Positions 14,445 through 60,630 of a stretch of DNA of 64,000 bases are shown piece by piece. The notes below the pieces were generated by a model that did no database searches, had not been told where the DNA came from, and saw only the letters and a list, made by a program, of their open reading frames with translations. Made by a program: the position numbers and the translations under genes. The DNA is from Octopus sinensis. Lineage: Eukaryota. Location: the NCBI RefSeq assembly GCF_006345805.1, contig NC_042998.1, forward strand, positions 119,040,001-119,104,000, in the 5' to 3' direction. Numbering within the stretch: the stretch's first letter is position 1; every line of letters starts with the position of its first letter.

Positions 14445-15673
14445 TATCAGGTCATCCCATGAGTTCTGTTCGACTTTACCTTTTTTAAAATTGAATGAAA
14501 TTTAATAGTATTTTAGAATGTCTAATGGAATTAATAATTATTTTTATGCATTTGTGTACATTTAAACTAATTAAATATTATTTTACAGATTAATAGAATT
14601 AAAATTTCTTTGATTAAAACCCTTTCTAACATGAAAGTATCCAAAGAGCATTTGAGGCACATAATGCTTTATGAGTAGAAAGAAGGAAACTCTGCAGCCG
14701 AAGCAACTCGCTTATAGGAAAGAATGCTTGAATGAAAGAACTTGCAGAAGATGGTTTGCAAAATTCAGAACTGGAGATTTCAGCTTTGAAGATGAAGATA
14801 GAACAGGACGTCCAGATGAGTTTGATAAGATCCTTGAGGCATTACTTGAAGAAAATCATGCATTATCAGTTGAAGAATTGGCCATACAACTGTTCATCGT
14901 CATCTTCAACAACTTGGAAAGGTTCCTAAACTTGGAAAATGGGTGCCTCATGAATTGTCCGAAAGCAACTGCAAATCCCGAGTTAACATCTTCTCTTCTC
15001 TCCATTCTTGCGAACTCATTTCACCCTTTTTGTATAGACTTGTGACTAGTGACAAAAAATGGATCTTCTATCGAAATGTTAAATGTCGTAAGCAGTGGCT
15101 TGGTAAAAAAAGAATAAGCTCGACCACAACCGAGAAGGGAGCTTCAAAAAGGTTCTTCTCTCTATCTGGTGGGATTGCGAAGGAGTAATTCATTTTGAAT
15201 TGTTACCACCTAATGCAACAATCAATGCTCAAGTCTACTACAAGCAACTAGAGCGTTTGAACCAAACTTTGAAGAAAAAACGACCCGCTTTAGTGAATCG
15301 AAAAGAAGTGATGTTTCATCAGGACAATGCGCGACCCCACACTGCAAAGATCACATCACAATAGATCGAAGAGCTTGGTTGGGAAAAAATATTCCTCATC
15401 CACCTTATTCTCCCGACGTTGCTCCCTCAGACTACTATTTGTTTCGTAGTTTACACAATCATTTGGGGGACATAACTTTCCCAAGCCAGGAGGAGGTCGA
15501 AACTGACATTTGAGTGTTCTTCACTTTGAAACCAAAAGAGCTTTATATTGATGGGATTAAAAAGCTTGTAATTAGATGGAAGAAAGTCAAGGATAATCAG
15601 GGAAAGTACATTGATGGTTAAATTTCAATTAAATATAACATTTCATCATTTTTTCTTTATTAAAAATTCGGAC

Positions 15674-19480: not shown

Positions 19481-19579
19481 ATTATTTTCACAAACATACA
19501 CATACACACACATAGACACACGCACACACACATATATATATTTATGTGTATATATATATATATATATATATACAAATAT

Positions 19580-19876
19580 GGAGGCGCAATGGCCTAGTGG
19601 TTAGGGCAGCGAACTCGCGGACGCAGGATCGCGGTTTCGATTCCCAGACCGGTCGTTGTGAGTGTTTATTGAGCGAAAACACCTAAAAGCTCCACGAGGC
19701 TCTGGCAGGGGGTGGTGATCCCTGCTGTACTATTTCACCACTCTTTCTCTCACTCTTTCTTCTGTTGGCCTGCTTGGGGTGGCGTCATTCGAAGGCTAAA
19801 ACAATGCGAACACATTGTGACCAGCGATGTGTAACAACATCTGATGGTCTGGTCGGTCACGTGATCACGTGACGGG
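19580..19876 (+). mobile_element. tRNA-derived SINE, copy 1, with 12-bp TSD
   Basis: Head GGAGGCGCAATGGCCTAGTGGTTAGGGCAGC with B-box GTTTCGATTCC. ATATACAAATAT at 19568-19579 and 19877-19888. Confidence 0.9.
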
Positions 19877-19884
19877 ATATACAA

Positions 19885-19917
<33 letters not shown>

Positions 19918-19928
19918 ATATACAATAT

Positions 19929-20225
19929 GGAGGCGCAATGGCCTAGTGGTTAGGGCAGCGAACTCGCGGACGCAGGATCGCGGTTTCGATTCCCAGACCG
20001 GTCGTTGTGAGTGTTTATTGAGCGAAAACACCTAAAAGCTCCACGAGGCTCTGGCAGGGGGTGGTGATCCCTGCTGTACTATTTCACCACTCTTTCTCTC
20101 ACTCTTTCTTCTGTTGGCCTGCTTGGGGTGGCGTCATTCGAAGGCTAAAACAATGCGAACACATTGTGACCAGCGATGTGTAACAACATCTGATGGTCTG
20201 GTCGGTCACGTGATCACGTGACGGG
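19929..20225 (+). mobile_element. tRNA-derived SINE, copy 2 (apparently identical tandem duplicate)
   Basis: Same sequence and essentially the same flanks as copy 1. Confidence 0.9.
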
Positions 20226-21184
20226 ATATACAAATATATATATATATATATATAATATATATATATATAAACCTACGTTTGTTACTCAAAAGGGACAAAC
20301 ACTTGGTAGATGTACATTGCCTTCACATTTTATTTCAGATAACTATTTAGTCAAGAGGAAATATAGGTATTTTCTCAATGTTGATTTGCGCACCCTGGAT
20401 CTAACGCCAAAGTAAAGAGCCTCAGCGTTTCAGAAATTATTCCCTGATAAAAATAAAGAGAAAATGTGAGAAAGGGGAATAATCAATAAGGGAAAGAGAC
20501 GCGGGTTAGAAATTACGTGAGAATGAGGTTCTATTGGAAGAGTTCCGAATGAAAGAGGTAAGTATAGGAGTTATCCTTTTGTCTGGAGCGGGCATATGGA
20601 AGGACTACTGTGTGACGTTTCTCTGTGTGTGTGTGTGTGGGTGTGTATGTATGTGTATGTGTGAGTGTGTGTGTGTCTGTGTGTGTGTGTGTATGTGTGT
20701 AGAAGTGTGTAAGTGCAGAGGTATGCTGGTGTAGATTACTGGAGACAAGAGGTGTTGGTGTGTAGTGTAATTACTAAGTGTAAATGTAGAAAACGTGGAT
20801 GCGAAAAGTTGGGGGCGAGAGTGAGTGTGAGGTAAATGTAAAGGTAAGAGAAATATGGAAGATGAAATAGATGTGCTAGAAGTGTATGAAGGCTTGAACT
20901 AAAATAACAGAAACAACATGGAATTCCTGAGACACGAAAAAAGTAAAAACAAAAGTTAATATAATATGTATATATTTTCAATTCTTCTCTTGCCATTATC
21001 AGCCACAGGCTGCCATGCTGGGGAAAGCGCCAGTAGCGCTAATGCTTGTTTATTTTAGAACCTCTTCCCAAGCAGTTCTGTCTCTGGAAGCGGTCTTGTA
21101 TATACATACATACATACATACATACATACATACATACATACATACATACATACATACATACATACATACATACAAACGTACGTA

Positions 21185-22340
21185 CATACATTATATCACT
21201 CAGACAACACCTGCAAGAAAGAAACGAGTTTATTCCATGCATACTCAAAAGTGAGGGCAACATCTTCAGGGTTGAAGAAAAACTTCTATGCCGTTCCTCT
21301 GAGAATACAACTGTCTCATGCGACCCAAAAGTGACTGAAGTAGCCTACCTAAACAGAAGCTTGGGGAAGAAGCAAGCATCATATCAACTAAATGCAACGC
21401 ATGGATACGAATTCCGTAAGCTAGAGGGTAACAACAGCATTGATAGGAAGATTAGCCTCTCCTGCACCTGCGATAGATACGTTACCTCCCAACTAGAAGG
21501 ATATGTCTTCACTATCCAGGAACAGTAAATAGCTACTAAATTCCTGATAAACAAAAGGAACAAAAATACTGCGAAACCTCCACGTTGTGATAAAAAAAAT
21601 CAGCTCTGCTTTCGTAGTGTGGAAAATATCACCCACATCAGCAGCAGCTGCCCTAAAATGTTTACGAGATACTACCTGTCCCTGAAGCATAATCTAGTTG
21701 CAAAGACTATTTACAATACTATCTATATGAAGGACTACCCTGATGTACACATCAAAGGTATGTCAGAACCAGCAGGTAATCACGGCTTTAAAAACAAGGA
21801 ATACTATTGGAGCAGCCCAATAAGAACATCAATTCGGTGCAAGTATAACAGACCTGATATTGTTCTGCTGTACAGGGAACAAAAGTCATGCACTGTTGCA
21901 GAGGCCAACTGCCCAACAGACGTGGATGTACAGTCATAAGTGCAAGAAAAGAACATTTATGGTGAATGAATGCCGAACTTAGAGCTCTTGTACCATGAAT
22001 ATGAATTCTCATTTTTATCTATCATCATAGGTGCATTAGATTACGTACCAACAAATTTACACAAAGACTTAGAAGCACTTGGTTTCACGGAAAAAGAGCA
22101 AAAGAAACTGACATGGATTCTCCAAATCTAATCTATTAGTGCCACAAATATTTCTAAAACATTCTAGAATTTCTCCATGGAAGATTCTTATGTGGTGTCT
22201 GCATTGACAGTTCAACTAGCACACCAATTCAACCACATATTCACAAACACCGAGAACTCTCTTAACTCAAAATGTCTTCTTACTTTGTTAGCAACCGGTT
22301 TGAACTCTCTCAAGGATTTAAATTAAACTCAAAGTAAATC
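21185..22340 (+). mobile_element. R4/Dong-like non-LTR retrotransposon 3' fragment (zinc knuckle and restriction-like endonuclease)
   Basis: EGYVFTIQEQ*IAT, QLCFRSVENITHISSSCPK (degenerate CCHC), KHNLVAK (cf. RHN/RHD), NRPDIVL, AEANCP, IIIGAL. Follows a (CATA)n tract. Confidence 0.85.
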
Positions 22341-24857: not shown

Positions 24858-25740
24858 GTATTTATAATTGTGTAACGTTCTCCGTTCTTTGTCTTTGTTC
24901 TCGTACACGTTCGCTTGCTTTCTTACAAAAATCTAACGGTCTTAGCTTAGACTTTTTTTAGGGCAACCAGATTGAACAGTTTCAAGTGTAACTGCCCACA
25001 AACAATAAGAATATGATAACAGGTGTCTTTCGAATGAGGACGAATCAAATTGAGCTAGCGCGTATAGAGTGAAAGTCTTAAGGCAGCAACATGGACGTGA
25101 AGTGTTGGCGGTCGCCAGTCAGCTCGAGAAAGAAAGATCATGGCTGGCCGAACACCGGTCACGTGAAAGGAGGAGGGAAGGGTAGGGGAAGCGGGATTGA
25201 AGGATTAGAAAAGAACAGAGATAAATGGAGAGGTAAATGGGAGATAATCGAGGAGTTAAAGAAAGAGAGGGTCAAGAAATGTGAGAGAGGGGGAACGAGA
25301 AAAGAAAAGAGCAAGAATGTATGAGGGAGGCTAAAAGAAAATAAAAGAATCGTACAAAATTTAGATACATACCATAAGGTGAGCAAAAGCCTTAAAGCGT
25401 TCGACCAGCCATGAGCTTTCTTTGTTGGCCTGACTGCCGACTGCCAACGCTTCTTATATCCAACACCTATGTTCCTGCTTTAAGGTTTTCACTTTATACA
25501 CGCCAGCTCGATTTCATTCGTCCTTAGTCGAAAGTCACCTGCTGTTATATTCTTGTTGTTTGTATTTGTAATTGTGTAACATATTCTCCGTTTTTTTTCC
25601 TTGTTGTACACATTCGCTTGGTTTCTTACAAAACAGTCTAACGCTCTTAGCTTAGACTTTTTGGTGGGCAACCAGATCGAACAGTCACAAGTGTAACTGC
25701 CCTAAATTGTAAGGAAATCTGGTAATTTGACTGATGAAAG
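24858..25740. mobile_element. Rearranged repeat with B + inverted A ... A + B architecture
   Basis: Segment B (GTATTT.TAATTGTGTAAC...AAGTGTAACTGCCC) is direct at 24858-25000 and 25561-25705. Segment A at ~25399-25560 is inverted at ~25001-25153. Confidence 0.75.
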
Positions 25741-25789: not shown

Positions 25790-26033
25790 ATTATCTCATC
25801 TTCTTCATAGCACTCCTGTCTAACGACCTCTGTCCAATCAGCCGCCCTGATTGACCGTTAACTTCTAAAGCTTTTTTAATTCTCTTTCTCTCTGTTTATT
25901 TTCTCGGGTTCCTTTCTCTTGAAGAGCGTAGGCTCGAAATGTAAAAGACTTTCTCACCTTCCCGAGCGTTAAACTAATACACCTGCTTGTTGTTTACACA
26001 CCTGTCTTCGTCTTTTGTTTTTCTGTAAATTCC

Positions 26034-26038
<5 letters not shown>
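25790..26038 (+). mobile_element. Short PLE pseudo-LTR-like repeat (family A)
   Basis: TTGAAGAGCGTAGGCTCGAAATGTA at 25919-25943; similar to 905-1033 and 60555-60630; ends in (TA)n. Confidence 0.6.
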
Positions 26039-26107
<69 letters not shown>

Positions 26108-26332
26108 GAAATATTTAAATTACTAAGTCTCTCTAAAAGAGAACAGCGGCAGCGTTCCGGAAAATAATAGTTATCGCCATACTAATATGGCATTCTTATA
26201 AAAATAAGAATAAAGCTGTCCGCTTATTAGCTCCATGAGGCCATCGCCTTAAGTTAGCTATTTGATACACAAACCGTATCCATATAACCTTCGAACAAGG
26301 GAGGTCAGTCGCTCCACACTACTTGACCGGCA

Positions 26333-26374
26333 GCTACAGACGCGTTTCGGGGTATTGCCCCTTTTCAATGCAGC
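26333..26374 (-). ncRNA. Minimal type I hammerhead ribozyme (U3-A8 variant)
   Basis: Minus strand reads GCTGCA-TTGAAAA-GGGG-caata-CCCC-GAAAC-GC-GTC-TGTAGC: helix I, variant core, helix II, palindromic helix III (ACGCGT) and GUC triplet. Confidence 0.75.
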
Positions 26375-26551
26375 ATATTAGTATGGCGATAACTATTATT
26401 TTCCGGGAACGGTGCCGCTGTTCTCTTTTAGAGAGACTTAGTAATTTTAATATTTCTATTATTGAAGATAAGTGGATGTATTCCACCGAAACTAGGTAAA
26501 TAAAACCATCGAACAGAGATTGTCAGAAGCGACACCTACTGGTCTGGCTAC

Positions 26552-26592
26552 GCTGCATTGAAAAGGGCAATACCCCGAAACGCGTCTGTAGC
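26552..26592 (+). ncRNA. Minimal type I hammerhead ribozyme (U3-A8 variant)
   Basis: GCTGCA-TTGAAAA-GGG-caata-CCCC-GAAAC-GC-GTC-TGTAGC (helix II one G shorter). Confidence 0.7.
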
Positions 26593-26766
26593 TGCCGGTC
26601 AAGTAGTGTGGAGCGACTGACCTCCCTTGTTCGAAGGTTATATGGATACAGTTTGTGTATCAAATAGCTAACTTAAGGCGATGGCCTCATGGAGCTAATA
26701 AGCGGACAGCTTTATTCTTATTTTTATAAGAATGCCATATTAGTATGGCGATAACTATATATATAT

Positions 26767-26830
<64 letters not shown>

Positions 26831-26835
<5 letters not shown>

Positions 26836-27486
26836 GAAATATTTAAATTACTAAGTCTCTCTAAAAGAGAACAGCGGCAGCGTTCCCGGAAAATAATAGT
26901 TATCGCCATACTAATATGGCATTCTTATAAGAATAAGAATAAAGCTGTCCGCTTATTAGCTCCATGAGGCCATCGCCTTAAGTTAGCTATTTGATACACA
27001 AACTGTATCCATATAACCTTCGAACAAGGGAGGTCAGTCGCTCCACACTACTTGACCGGCAGCTACAGACGCGTTTCGGGGTATTGCCCCTTTTCAATGC
27101 AGCATATTAGTATGGCGATAACTATTATTTTCCGGGAACGCTGCCGCTGTTCTCTTTTAGAGAGACTTAGTAATTTTGATATTTCTATTATTGAAGATAA
27201 GTGGATGTATTCCACCGAAACTAGGTAAATAAAACCATCGAACAGAGATTGTCAGAAGCGACACCTACTGGTCTGGCTACGCTGCATTGAAAAGGGCAAT
27301 ACCCCGAAACGCGTCTGTAGCTGCCGGTCAAGTAGTGTGGAGCGACTGACCTCCCTTGTTCGAAGGTTATATGGATACAGTTTGTGTATCAAATAGCTAA
27401 CTTAAGGCGATGGCCTCATGGAGCTATAAGCGGACAGCTTTATTCTTATTTTTATAAGAATGCCATATTAGTATGGCGATAACTAT

Positions 27487-27487
<1 letters not shown>
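26831..27487. mobile_element. Head-to-head hammerhead-bearing element, unit 2 (tandem copy at 729-bp period)
   Basis: Near-identical to unit 1. Hammerheads at 27062-27103 (minus) and 27281-27321 (plus). Confidence 0.8.
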
Positions 27488-27553
<66 letters not shown>

Positions 27554-48229: not shown

Positions 48230-48752
48230 CTACCTGCTCAGACGTCTAGGCGAAATTTTCAAAAAGTTTTCATCATTGTTGACACAATCAATGAGATCTT
48301 GTGCAAACAAACCCGATAGACCTGAAAGCAGTTTGGGCATCTCATACCCAAATCTTCAGTGATAATGGACGGTGATTCGACGATTTCCCCTGACAGCTGC
48401 ACGCACATCTGTGACGTTTTTCTCAGTTCTGCTGGTTGCGAGTCTCCCAGGACGTTTATCAATAACGACATTTTTCCGGCCTCCTTGGAAACGTCTAACT
48501 CACTGCGGCTCATACACTCCTCTCCATACATTTTCTGCAACTTTGCGTCTGCCTCTGAACAAGTATTTCCAAGGCAACTTTCTCTATCACGGTCAATGCG
48601 ACGATCACATACTACACACCTTCCTTCCAAGCACTGCTGTGAGCAACAGAAGTGAGCTAGAACGTTAAAACTTAGTGCACATGCACAACAAAGTTTACTA
48701 TCAATCTGTGTCAAGTGACTTTGCCAACAGTCCGAATGCTTATTGATCAGAC

Positions 48753-48756
<4 letters not shown>
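48230..48756 (-). mobile_element. Mariner 5' fragment (TIR and HTH region)
   Basis: Minus-strand TA-TGAGGTCTGATCAATAAGCATTCGGACTG terminus; CLGNTCSEADAKLQKMYGEECMSRS is typical of the mariner N-terminal HTH. Confidence 0.8.
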
Positions 48757-60515: not shown

Positions 60516-60630
60516 CCCTTTTGTGTTTTATTTTCTTTCCCTGTATATTTCTGTGTTCTATTCTGTCGAAGAGCGTAGGCTCGAAACGTAAAATACTTTC
60601 TCACTTCCCTAGCGTTAAACTAATATATCT
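60270..60630. mobile_element. Two divergent family-A pLTR-like repeats around a (TA)n tract
   Basis: Minus copy ACGAAGAGCTTTGTTCGAAACGCA (~60372-60405); plus copy TCGAAGAGCGTAGGCTCGAAACGTA (~60566-60592). Confidence 0.6.

What the first reader, a model, noticed from the sequence alone, without database searches (positions are those of the whole stretch)
26103..27487. Candidate retrozyme-like ~362-nt circular RNA element with hammerheads, inserted head-to-head in (TA)n
Seen: the plus strand reads X-Z-Y and then restarts X (ATATTAGTATGGCGATAACTA at 26375 and 26737, period 362). The left part is the reverse complement of Y-X and begins exactly at hammerhead helix I. The two arms are therefore different permutations of one circular or tandem template. 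No meaningful ORF is present. Established: minimal type I hammerheads mark Penelope-like pseudo-LTRs and metazoan non-LTR retrozymes, which have monomers of a few hundred nt and accumulate as circRNAs; inverted 5' segments are typical of PLE insertions. Inference: a non-autonomous self-cleaving RNA family, mobilised by PLE RT and favouring TA tracts.
Basis: partly seen in the sequence, partly recalled or inferred. Interest (0 to 1): 0.85.

Follow-up and report, generated by a model that had tools for sequence, protein, structure and literature searches.

The report
Penelope-type retrozyme with LINE parasite
This is one copy of a young, non-coding 362-base repeat carrying a hammerhead ribozyme motif, present at hundreds of TA microsatellites as two mirror-image arms with fixed outer ends, so it is likely copied by a Penelope-like retrotransposon enzyme (possibly from an RNA circle), and elsewhere in the genome a second retrotransposon inserts almost only into one site of this repeat.

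Summary
The interval holds two ~99% identical tandem copies of one insertion, separated by TA. Each is an inverted arm (274 nt) plus a forward arm (362-nt monomer + 22-25 nt), with four type I hammerheads in all (U3-A8 core, palindromic helix III, covariation across sister families).

The family is young (962 exact 29-mer hits). In 55 of 78 loci parsed, one arm ends at monomer ~25 and the opposite arm at ~88: a fixed 63-nt offset, the Penelope-like (PLE) 'tail'. Only the inner ends vary. Arms run through the cleavage site to 5.8 monomers, share alleles within a locus and join by 1-3-nt microhomology. Duplications at non-TA sites are 11-14 bp. No copy adjoins a PLE ORF, and no partner PLE was found.

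Best reading: a non-autonomous PLE-mobilised retrozyme, twin-primed from two fixed RNA sites. The circular RNA is inferred, not shown.

New here: a LINE with intact ORFs inserts at one 16-bp site just upstream of the hammerhead (32 of 33 5' ends). Verdict: new variant of a known kind.

The parts
25825..26036 (+). Older 3' end (pLTR-like, with a degenerate hammerhead-like motif near 25914-25945) of a relative of the genome's very abundant PLE family; its TA tract was the landing site
   Evidence: 74% identity over 286 nt to the 3' end of L243; family size
26037..26104 (.). (TA)34 target tract, left flank
   Evidence: TRF
26102..26374 (-). Copy 1, inverted arm: monomer 178-362 + 1-88, ending in the 63-nt 'tail' (26102-26164)
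26333..26374 (-). Hammerhead of inverted arm 1 (family-majority form, 4-bp helix II)
   Evidence: motif scan
26375..26758 (+). Copy 1, forward arm: full 362-nt monomer (26375-26736, GC 41%) + monomer 1-22 ('short' end)
26462..26499 (+). Degenerate second hammerhead-like motif (no helix I; core broken in family B); possibly a relic
   Evidence: read by eye; not tested
26526..26541 (+). 16-bp target site (monomer 152-167) of the site-specific LINE; unoccupied here (also 27255-27270)
26552..26592 (+). Type I hammerhead, U3-A8 core, palindromic helix III; predicted cleavage after 26586 (monomer 212)
26756..26832 (.). (TA)39 spacer between the two copies
26830..27103 (-). Copy 2, inverted arm (hammerhead at 27062-27103)
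27104..27489 (+). Copy 2, forward arm (hammerhead at 27281-27321), ending at monomer 25
27487..27550 (.). (TA)32 right flank

Best explanation
This is a copy of a young non-coding 362-nt hammerhead repeat family (an animal non-LTR retrozyme) whose insertions have Penelope-like anatomy, so it is likely mobilised in trans by a PLE RT/GIY-YIG protein. Inferred mechanism: the endonuclease nicks both strands of AT-rich DNA about 11-14 bp apart. Each free 3' end primes reverse transcription at its own fixed internal site on the RNA (monomer 25 and 88). Both cDNAs run round a template that has no effective 5' end, most likely the monomer circle made by double-hammerhead cleavage and ligation, and stop at random. 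They are then joined head-to-head by 1-3-nt microhomology. The copy in this window was later duplicated through its flanking TA tracts. Shown: anatomy, fixed ends, multimers, allele sharing, duplications, hammerhead covariation. Inferred: the PLE as mobiliser (about 0.85), twin priming (about 0.7), the circle (about 0.5), ribozyme activity.
For: Ends: of 152 arms in 78 loci, 73 end at monomer 81-95 (mode 88), 67 at 18-29 (mode 25) and 12 elsewhere; 55 of 78 loci are exactly one long plus one short arm on opposite strands, none is short+short; 118 of 140 such ends abut TA-like DNA. Distant family D shows the same 63-nt offset (ends at query 247 and 310). A PLE protein in vitro nicks and extends both strands and starts RT at two internal sites that bracket the tail (PMC11167929). 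Duplications of 11-14 bp at 5 low-TA loci of 8 examined. Exact junction overlap of 1-3 nt in 35 of 55 junctions. Template without a 5' stop: 98 of 140 arms pass the cleavage site, 81 exceed one monomer, maximum 5.8; 52 long arms from the position-ordered sample fit an exponential (KS p = 0.69) and only 1 of 52 stops at the cleavage site. One template per event: where either unit carries the minor allele at 4 common sites, units agree in 121 of 126 comparisons within arms, 129 of 141 between arms, and 8633 of 35145 between loci; rare variants are shared in 19 of 313 between-arm comparisons against 56 of 51313 between loci. Ribozyme: 7 of 12 pairs change on both sides across families A, B, D, E, including U3-A8/C3-G8; helix III is a different palindrome in each family; two motifs co-fold into the double hammerhead as the minimum-energy structure (-31.9 against 2 x -12.9 kcal/mol). 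Long open PLE ORFs with a C-terminal GIY-YIG domain, U3-A8 hammerheads and TA-flanked ends exist in the genome.
Against: No partner PLE found: a profile of families A+B matched no PLE 3' region among the 40 GIY-YIG loci and 20 loci of a second family, only separate insertions. The one PLE family whose tail I could read has about 35-40 nt, not 63 (by eye). HHR cleavage was not needed for insertion in vitro and unprocessed RNA was the dominant substrate (PMC11167929); 8 of 9 Xenopus retrozyme dimers did not cleave (preprint 10.64898/2026.07.22.740005). In L166, inner units share variants absent from the first unit and the other arm, pointing to growth after insertion. Most rare variants are unshared even within an arm (236 of 266), and the two arms in this window differ at several sites and share no derived variant. 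Allele sharing would also result from a homogeneous linear multimer. 23 of the 78 loci were top BLAST hits, biased to long arms.
Confidence: 0.7

Rival explanations
1. Same PLE-driven twin priming, but the template is an uncleaved linear multimer read through from tandem genomic copies; the hammerhead is weak or incidental and no circle is needed.
For: Genomic multimers of 3-6 units exist. HHR mutants insert normally in vitro. PLE-type HHRs cleave poorly (PMC4209133). Local amplification is seen in L166.
Against: Every insertion is 5'-truncated, so linear templates would shorten each generation, yet several haplotypes each have multimers. Arm lengths are exponential with no cap. The monomer folds as a closed rod with the hammerhead at one tip (z = -6.6; 6 of 93 pairs compensatory between A and B).
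Confidence: 0.35
2. The inverted arm arises by self-priming fold-back of one cDNA, as proposed for Adineta Penelope elements, not by priming from both target strands.
For: PMC3846280 argues for this from palindromic junctions. 6-7 of 65 junctions here are symmetric. It explains allele sharing between arms.
Against: Most junctions join two unrelated monomer positions by 1-3 nt. Either the long or the short arm can be the longer one, and both stop at fixed RT-start-like sites.
Confidence: 0.15
3. These are ordinary 5'-truncated pLTR stumps of an autonomous PLE that I did not sample.
For: Only 150 of 5029 GIY-YIG candidates were scored. 24 of 57 Xenopus retrozyme families matched known repeats, 21 of the 22 being PLEs.
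Against: Long arms always continue into another exact monomer, never into coding sequence; no same-strand PLE ORF adjoins an arm in 78 loci.
Confidence: 0.08
4. The LINE found inside the repeat is its mobiliser.
For: Tight physical association and intact ORFs.
Against: The LINE sits inside monomers with a 16-bp duplication of the repeat's own sequence, in hosts with different junctions. The repeat's ends are TA-flanked, two-armed and share no 3' end with the LINE.
Confidence: 0.02
5. For the two copies in this window only: the tandem pair is two alleles assembled end to end across TA tracts, not a real duplication.
For: Same junction and private alleles, about 1% different. Other repeats also appear doubled across TA tracts (19530-20269; L186 and L187).
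Against: Unequal exchange between flanking TA tracts gives the same picture; not tested with reads.
Confidence: 0.3

Closest known systems
Animal non-LTR retrozymes (Cervera & de la Pena 2020, PMC7229834; Li, Clavereau & Pollet 2026 preprint 10.64898/2026.07.22.740005)
   Same: Non-coding monomer of 150-450 bp (mussel: 350-390), one type I hammerhead per unit, GC under 50%, monomers to multimers, duplications longer than 4 bp, highly self-paired predicted circle, PLEs in the same genome.
   Different: U3-A8 core; dispersed two-armed head-to-head insertions with two fixed ends and a TA target, not described in the sections I read; no RNA evidence here; no pLTR homologue found.
EN+ Penelope-like element insertion architecture (PMC3846280, PMC8557442, PMC11167929)
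   Same: Inverted 5'-truncated arm, tail on one arm only, short duplication, microhomology junction, AT-rich or (TA)n target, hammerhead.
   Different: No ORF; tail 63 nt against the 30-40 reported; arms are circularly repeating monomers.
PLE hammerhead variants (Cervera & de la Pena 2014, PMC4209133)
   Same: U3-A8 core covariation (reported in Schistosoma); palindromic helix III suited to a dimeric fold.
   Different: Helix I of 6 bp and helix II of 4 bp are the canonical metazoan sizes, not min-HHR sizes.
Target-specific Tx1-clade LINEs (Tx1 in Tx1D, Keno in U2 snRNA, Tx1-Mar in Mariner-N4; PMC4494074)
   Same: An APE-RT LINE that inserts at one site of another multicopy element.
   Different: The target is a retrozyme, 10 nt upstream of hammerhead helix I; no paper holds both 'retrozyme' and 'Tx1'. 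Clade of this LINE not established.

Membership tests
Animal non-LTR retrozyme | Tandem repeat of 150-450 bp with a type I hammerhead in each unit | tested here: met
   362-nt units with consecutive hammerheads at many loci; up to 5.8 units
Animal non-LTR retrozyme | No protein coding; GC under 50% | tested here: met
Animal non-LTR retrozyme | Target duplication longer than 4 bp where visible | tested here: met
   11-14 bp at 5 low-TA loci of 8 examined; the other 3 are TA-flanked and uninformative
Animal non-LTR retrozyme | Conserved hammerhead structure | tested here: met
   90.8% of cells paired, 7 of 12 pairs compensatory, above all slid controls (10 related sequences that I picked)
Animal non-LTR retrozyme | Self-cleavage of the RNA | not testable with these tools
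   only folding
Animal non-LTR retrozyme | Accumulation as monomeric linear and circular RNA | not testable with these tools
   only contigs of runs guessed to be RNA; they cannot show ends, strand or circles
Non-autonomous PLE derivative | Inverted 5'-truncated arm with a tail on one end | tested here: met
   55 of 78 loci; tail 63 nt, longer than reported
Non-autonomous PLE derivative | AT-rich or microsatellite target | tested here: met
   118 of 140 ends
Non-autonomous PLE derivative | Sequence homology to the pLTR of an autonomous PLE | tested here: inconclusive
   none in 60 PLE loci, a small sample of over 5000 candidates
Autonomous PLE | RT + GIY-YIG ORF | tested here: not met
min-HHR (PMC4209133) | No helix III, long helix II (7-8 bp), short helix I | tested here: not met
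   6-bp, 4-bp and 2-bp helices
Tx1 clade (for the LINE) | APE-RT ORF2, zinc-knuckle ORF1, sequence-specific target | tested here: met
   the domain order as a Tx1/L1 trait is recalled
Tx1 clade (for the LINE) | RT phylogeny inside Tx1 | not tested
   homologues carry no clade names; no reference set was available

The most novel reading that the evidence does not exclude
A three-tier parasite chain. A PLE dimer twin-primes rolling-circle reverse transcription on one 362-nt circular RNA from two fixed sites. A site-specific LINE has evolved to home just upstream of that RNA's hammerhead, so that it is co-transcribed with the retrozyme and cut out by the flanking ribozymes with its own target sequence attached at the 3' end, much as R2 uses rDNA transcription.
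Probability: 0.25. Interest if true: 0.8.

Novelty: new variant of a known kind. Interest (0 to 1): 0.55.

Why it matters
How PLEs make inverted arms and tails, and whether retrozyme circles are the true retrotransposition template, are open questions in the papers read (PMC8557442, PMC7229834, PMC11167929). Here hundreds of near-identical short insertions record both priming sites, both stop points and the template haplotype, so these models can be tested statistically and in a simple in vitro assay. A LINE that targets one site in a retrozyme extends the known targets of sequence-specific LINEs and suggests the retrozyme is transcribed enough to be worth colonising (inference). The insertions are also long perfect inverted repeats, a likely source of double-stranded RNA.

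Tried and rejected
Rfam found no hammerhead at either threshold; the E-value hits are TA-repeat noise. No tRNA in the window; the bacterial promoter scan was uninformative.

RNA: no RNA holder listed on record. Contigs of 4 runs guessed to be RNA cover 27-30 of 30 bins but cannot show circles, ends or strand, and showed no informative joint.

Partner search: the GIY-YIG family search, extended loci, a second PLE family and profile searches found no pLTR homologue. L047/L061 and L066 turned out to be separate insertions of sister families B and D beside PLEs. A 13-nt match between the monomer's minus strand and the abundant PLE's 3' end was set aside as probable chance.

An excess of arms ending at the cleavage site was not significant (8 against 3.8, p = 0.04 uncorrected). 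The LINE's clade could not be named. Alignment A1 had wrong coordinates for some rows and the structure was off by one column; both were redone.

Literature: 'hammerhead ribozyme'+'octopus', 'retrozyme'+'cephalopod' (69), 'Octopus'+'Penelope'+'hammerhead' (70) and 'retrozyme'+'Tx1' (82) returned no description of this family; subscription papers and Repbase/Dfam are not covered. Earlier scan findings had nothing by sequence or in this genome.

Full report
Observation. The interval is two direct copies of one insertion: 26102-26758 and 26830-27489, with 7 differences in 658 nt and the same internal junction, set in TA tracts of 34, 39 and 32 units. Each copy is an inverted arm (monomer 178-362 + 1-88) abutting a forward arm (the whole 362-nt monomer, 26375-26736, plus 22-25 nt). 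There is no meaningful ORF. The left flank, 25825-26036, is an older 3' end of a relative of a very abundant PLE family (74% identity), so the element landed in that PLE's TA tract (inferred).

The hammerhead. A motif scan of the whole window found four hits, all in these arms. The motif has a 6-bp helix I, a U3-A8 core, a 4-bp helix II (3 bp in the two forward arms here; the 4-bp form is the family majority) and a 2-bp helix III within a 6-nt palindrome. Rfam does not detect it. Across 10 related motifs that I picked from families A, B, D and E, 90.8% of cells pair and 7 of 12 pairs change on both sides, including the 3-8 core pair; slid controls reach at most 52%. Each family has a different helix III palindrome. 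Two copies co-fold into the double hammerhead as the minimum-energy structure. The U3-A8 variant and dimeric action are described in PMC4209133 (parts 1-2 of 4 read). The monomer closed at the cleavage site folds as a rod with the hammerhead at one tip, z = -6.6 against 100 shuffles; 6 of 93 consensus pairs are compensatory among 7 A and 4 B monomers. Activity is untested.

The family. A monomer search of the 2.72-Gb own genome scored 40 of 1314 candidates and gave 157 matches, full-length ones 94-100% identical. One exact 29-mer has 962 hits, control 0. Sister families are B (83% identical, 360-363 nt, 308 exact hits of a 28-mer), C (L067, 79%), D (352 nt, C3-G8 core) and E (L057).

Insertion anatomy. 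I parsed 78 loci: 23 top hits and 55 taken mostly in positional order on two contigs; L104 and L110 (duplicates) and L156 (assembly gap) were dropped. Of 152 arms, 73 end at monomer 81-95, 67 at 18-29 and 12 elsewhere. 55 loci are exactly one long and one short arm on opposite strands, one is long+long, none is short+short. 118 of 140 such ends abut TA-like DNA. Family D shows the same 63-nt offset. Inner ends are scattered, with a hot spot at 242-264 (30 against 10 expected) that survives a window scan; 173-183 is borderline and the cleavage site is not significant. Junctions overlap by 1-3 nt in 35 of 55 cases; 12 have extra or unmatched bases. Low-TA sites show 11-14-bp duplications. This matches the PLE pattern of an inverted truncated copy plus tail (PMC8557442 passages; PMC3846280 passages), and the in vitro finding that a PLE protein nicks and extends both strands and starts RT at two internal sites bracketing the tail (PMC11167929, parts 1-2 of 4). 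Each arm reads as cDNA extended from the flanking target 3' end, which is why I infer twin priming.

Template. A cleaved linear monomer would cap arms at 238 or 175 nt. Instead 98 of 140 arms pass the cleavage site and 81 exceed one monomer, up to 5.8. The 52 long arms of the positional sample fit an exponential (KS p = 0.69); 32 pass the site and 1 stops there. Alleles at four common sites agree in 121 of 126 comparisons within arms and 129 of 141 between arms, against 8633 of 35145 between loci, and several loci share private variants across both arms. This fits one circular monomer per event, the model proposed in PMC7229834 (parts 2-4 of 6), but also a homogeneous linear multimer. Against the circle: L166 shows growth after insertion, most rare variants are unshared (mutation or assembly error), and cleavage was dispensable in vitro. 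I put the circle at about 0.5.

Partner. The genome has many PLEs: 147 GIY-YIG matches among 150 scored of 5029 candidates, some in 775-883-aa open frames, and a second family with 20,018 candidates. Their CxxxxCxxC motif before the GIY-YIG domain suggests the Neptune/Nematis type; I built no tree. One family carries a U3-A8 hammerhead about 70 nt from a TA-flanked end, a tail of about 35-40 nt and occasional inverted arms. None of the 60 PLE loci tested is homologous to the monomer, and no PLE ORF adjoins an arm in the 78 family loci. The partner is unidentified. The 2026 preprint (parts 1-3 of 5 read; supplements not seen) already argues that animal retrozymes are non-autonomous PLE derivatives, from 35 genomes that include no mollusc.

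A LINE that targets the repeat. Three sampled copies carried the same 5.4-kb insert at monomer 152-167. In L169 it has a 512-aa open frame with a zinc knuckle and a 1140-aa APE-RT-zf-RVT open frame. 32 of 33 exact 5' ends are preceded by the target. 26 of 30 fetched 3' ends (of 39) are followed by it; three of the four exceptions are diverged copies. 12 of 14 fetched 5' regions abut monomer 167, each in a host with a different upstream arm; one is truncated at another position and one held no LINE. One 71-nt truncated copy sits at the same site. With arms averaging about 400 nt, copying through 5.4 kb is implausible, so these are independent site-specific insertions with a 16-bp duplication. 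Tx1-clade LINEs that target other repeats are known (PMC4494074 passages); I found no paper naming both 'retrozyme' and 'Tx1'. The clade is untested. The window's copies are unoccupied.

RNA. Contigs of four runs guessed to be RNA cover the monomer but say nothing on circles. In one run two loose ends differ from the repeat only by T-to-C changes (10 of 16 T and 6 of 8 T, compared by eye); 206 genomic segments of the first stretch show at most 4. This looks like ADAR hyper-editing of inverted-arm double-stranded RNA, but that run has a different organism label from the best DNA holder and there is no matched DNA, so it is a weak hint.

Verdict. The feature is real. It works like, and by the testable criteria belongs with, animal non-LTR retrozymes of PLE type. 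The class is known; the rigid two-site, two-arm record, the 63-nt tail conserved in a distant sister family and the site-specific LINE are the new parts. New variant of a known kind, interest 0.55.

Noticed in passing
L169:2148-7510; also L157, L164, L191-L220, L261-L274: A young LINE with intact ORFs inserted almost only at monomer 152-167 of this repeat, with a 16-bp duplication; tandem LINE-LINE and LINE-monomer-LINE arrays occur (C3:72.50-72.53 Mb). One diverged relative (L215) is followed by what looks like the start of U1 snRNA (recognised from memory).
   Followed up: yes
window 26375-26758, run X7: Loose contig ends differing from the repeat only by many T-to-C changes, like ADAR hyper-editing of the antisense arm.
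   Followed up: partly
L061, L067, L066:7480-7790, L057:45-420: Sister hammerhead repeat families B, C, D and E; B and D share the two-armed TA-flanked anatomy, and D keeps the 63-nt offset and a hairpin just before the short end.
   Followed up: partly
window 19530-20269: A 349-bp repeat (SINE-like by eye) present twice in tandem across TA tracts, like the duplication studied here.
   Followed up: no
window 25825-26036, 60550-60598 and about 900-1020: Fragments of the 3' end of a very abundant PLE family with an atypical hammerhead-like core.
   Followed up: partly
L064: A PLE with a 479-aa upstream open frame without a Pfam match before the 781-aa RT/GIY-YIG frame, flanked by a 1.15-kb direct repeat that includes downstream host DNA (possible transduction).
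   Followed up: no
window 26462-26499: Degenerate second hammerhead-like motif that begins exactly where the long arm ends.
   Followed up: no
window 24998-25563: An older inverted repeat (78% over 165 nt) next to the PLE fragment, with relatives at other loci.
   Followed up: no
window 14665-15045, 21529-21939, 48259-48753: Decayed fragments that look like mariner transposase and LINE RT by eye.
   Followed up: no
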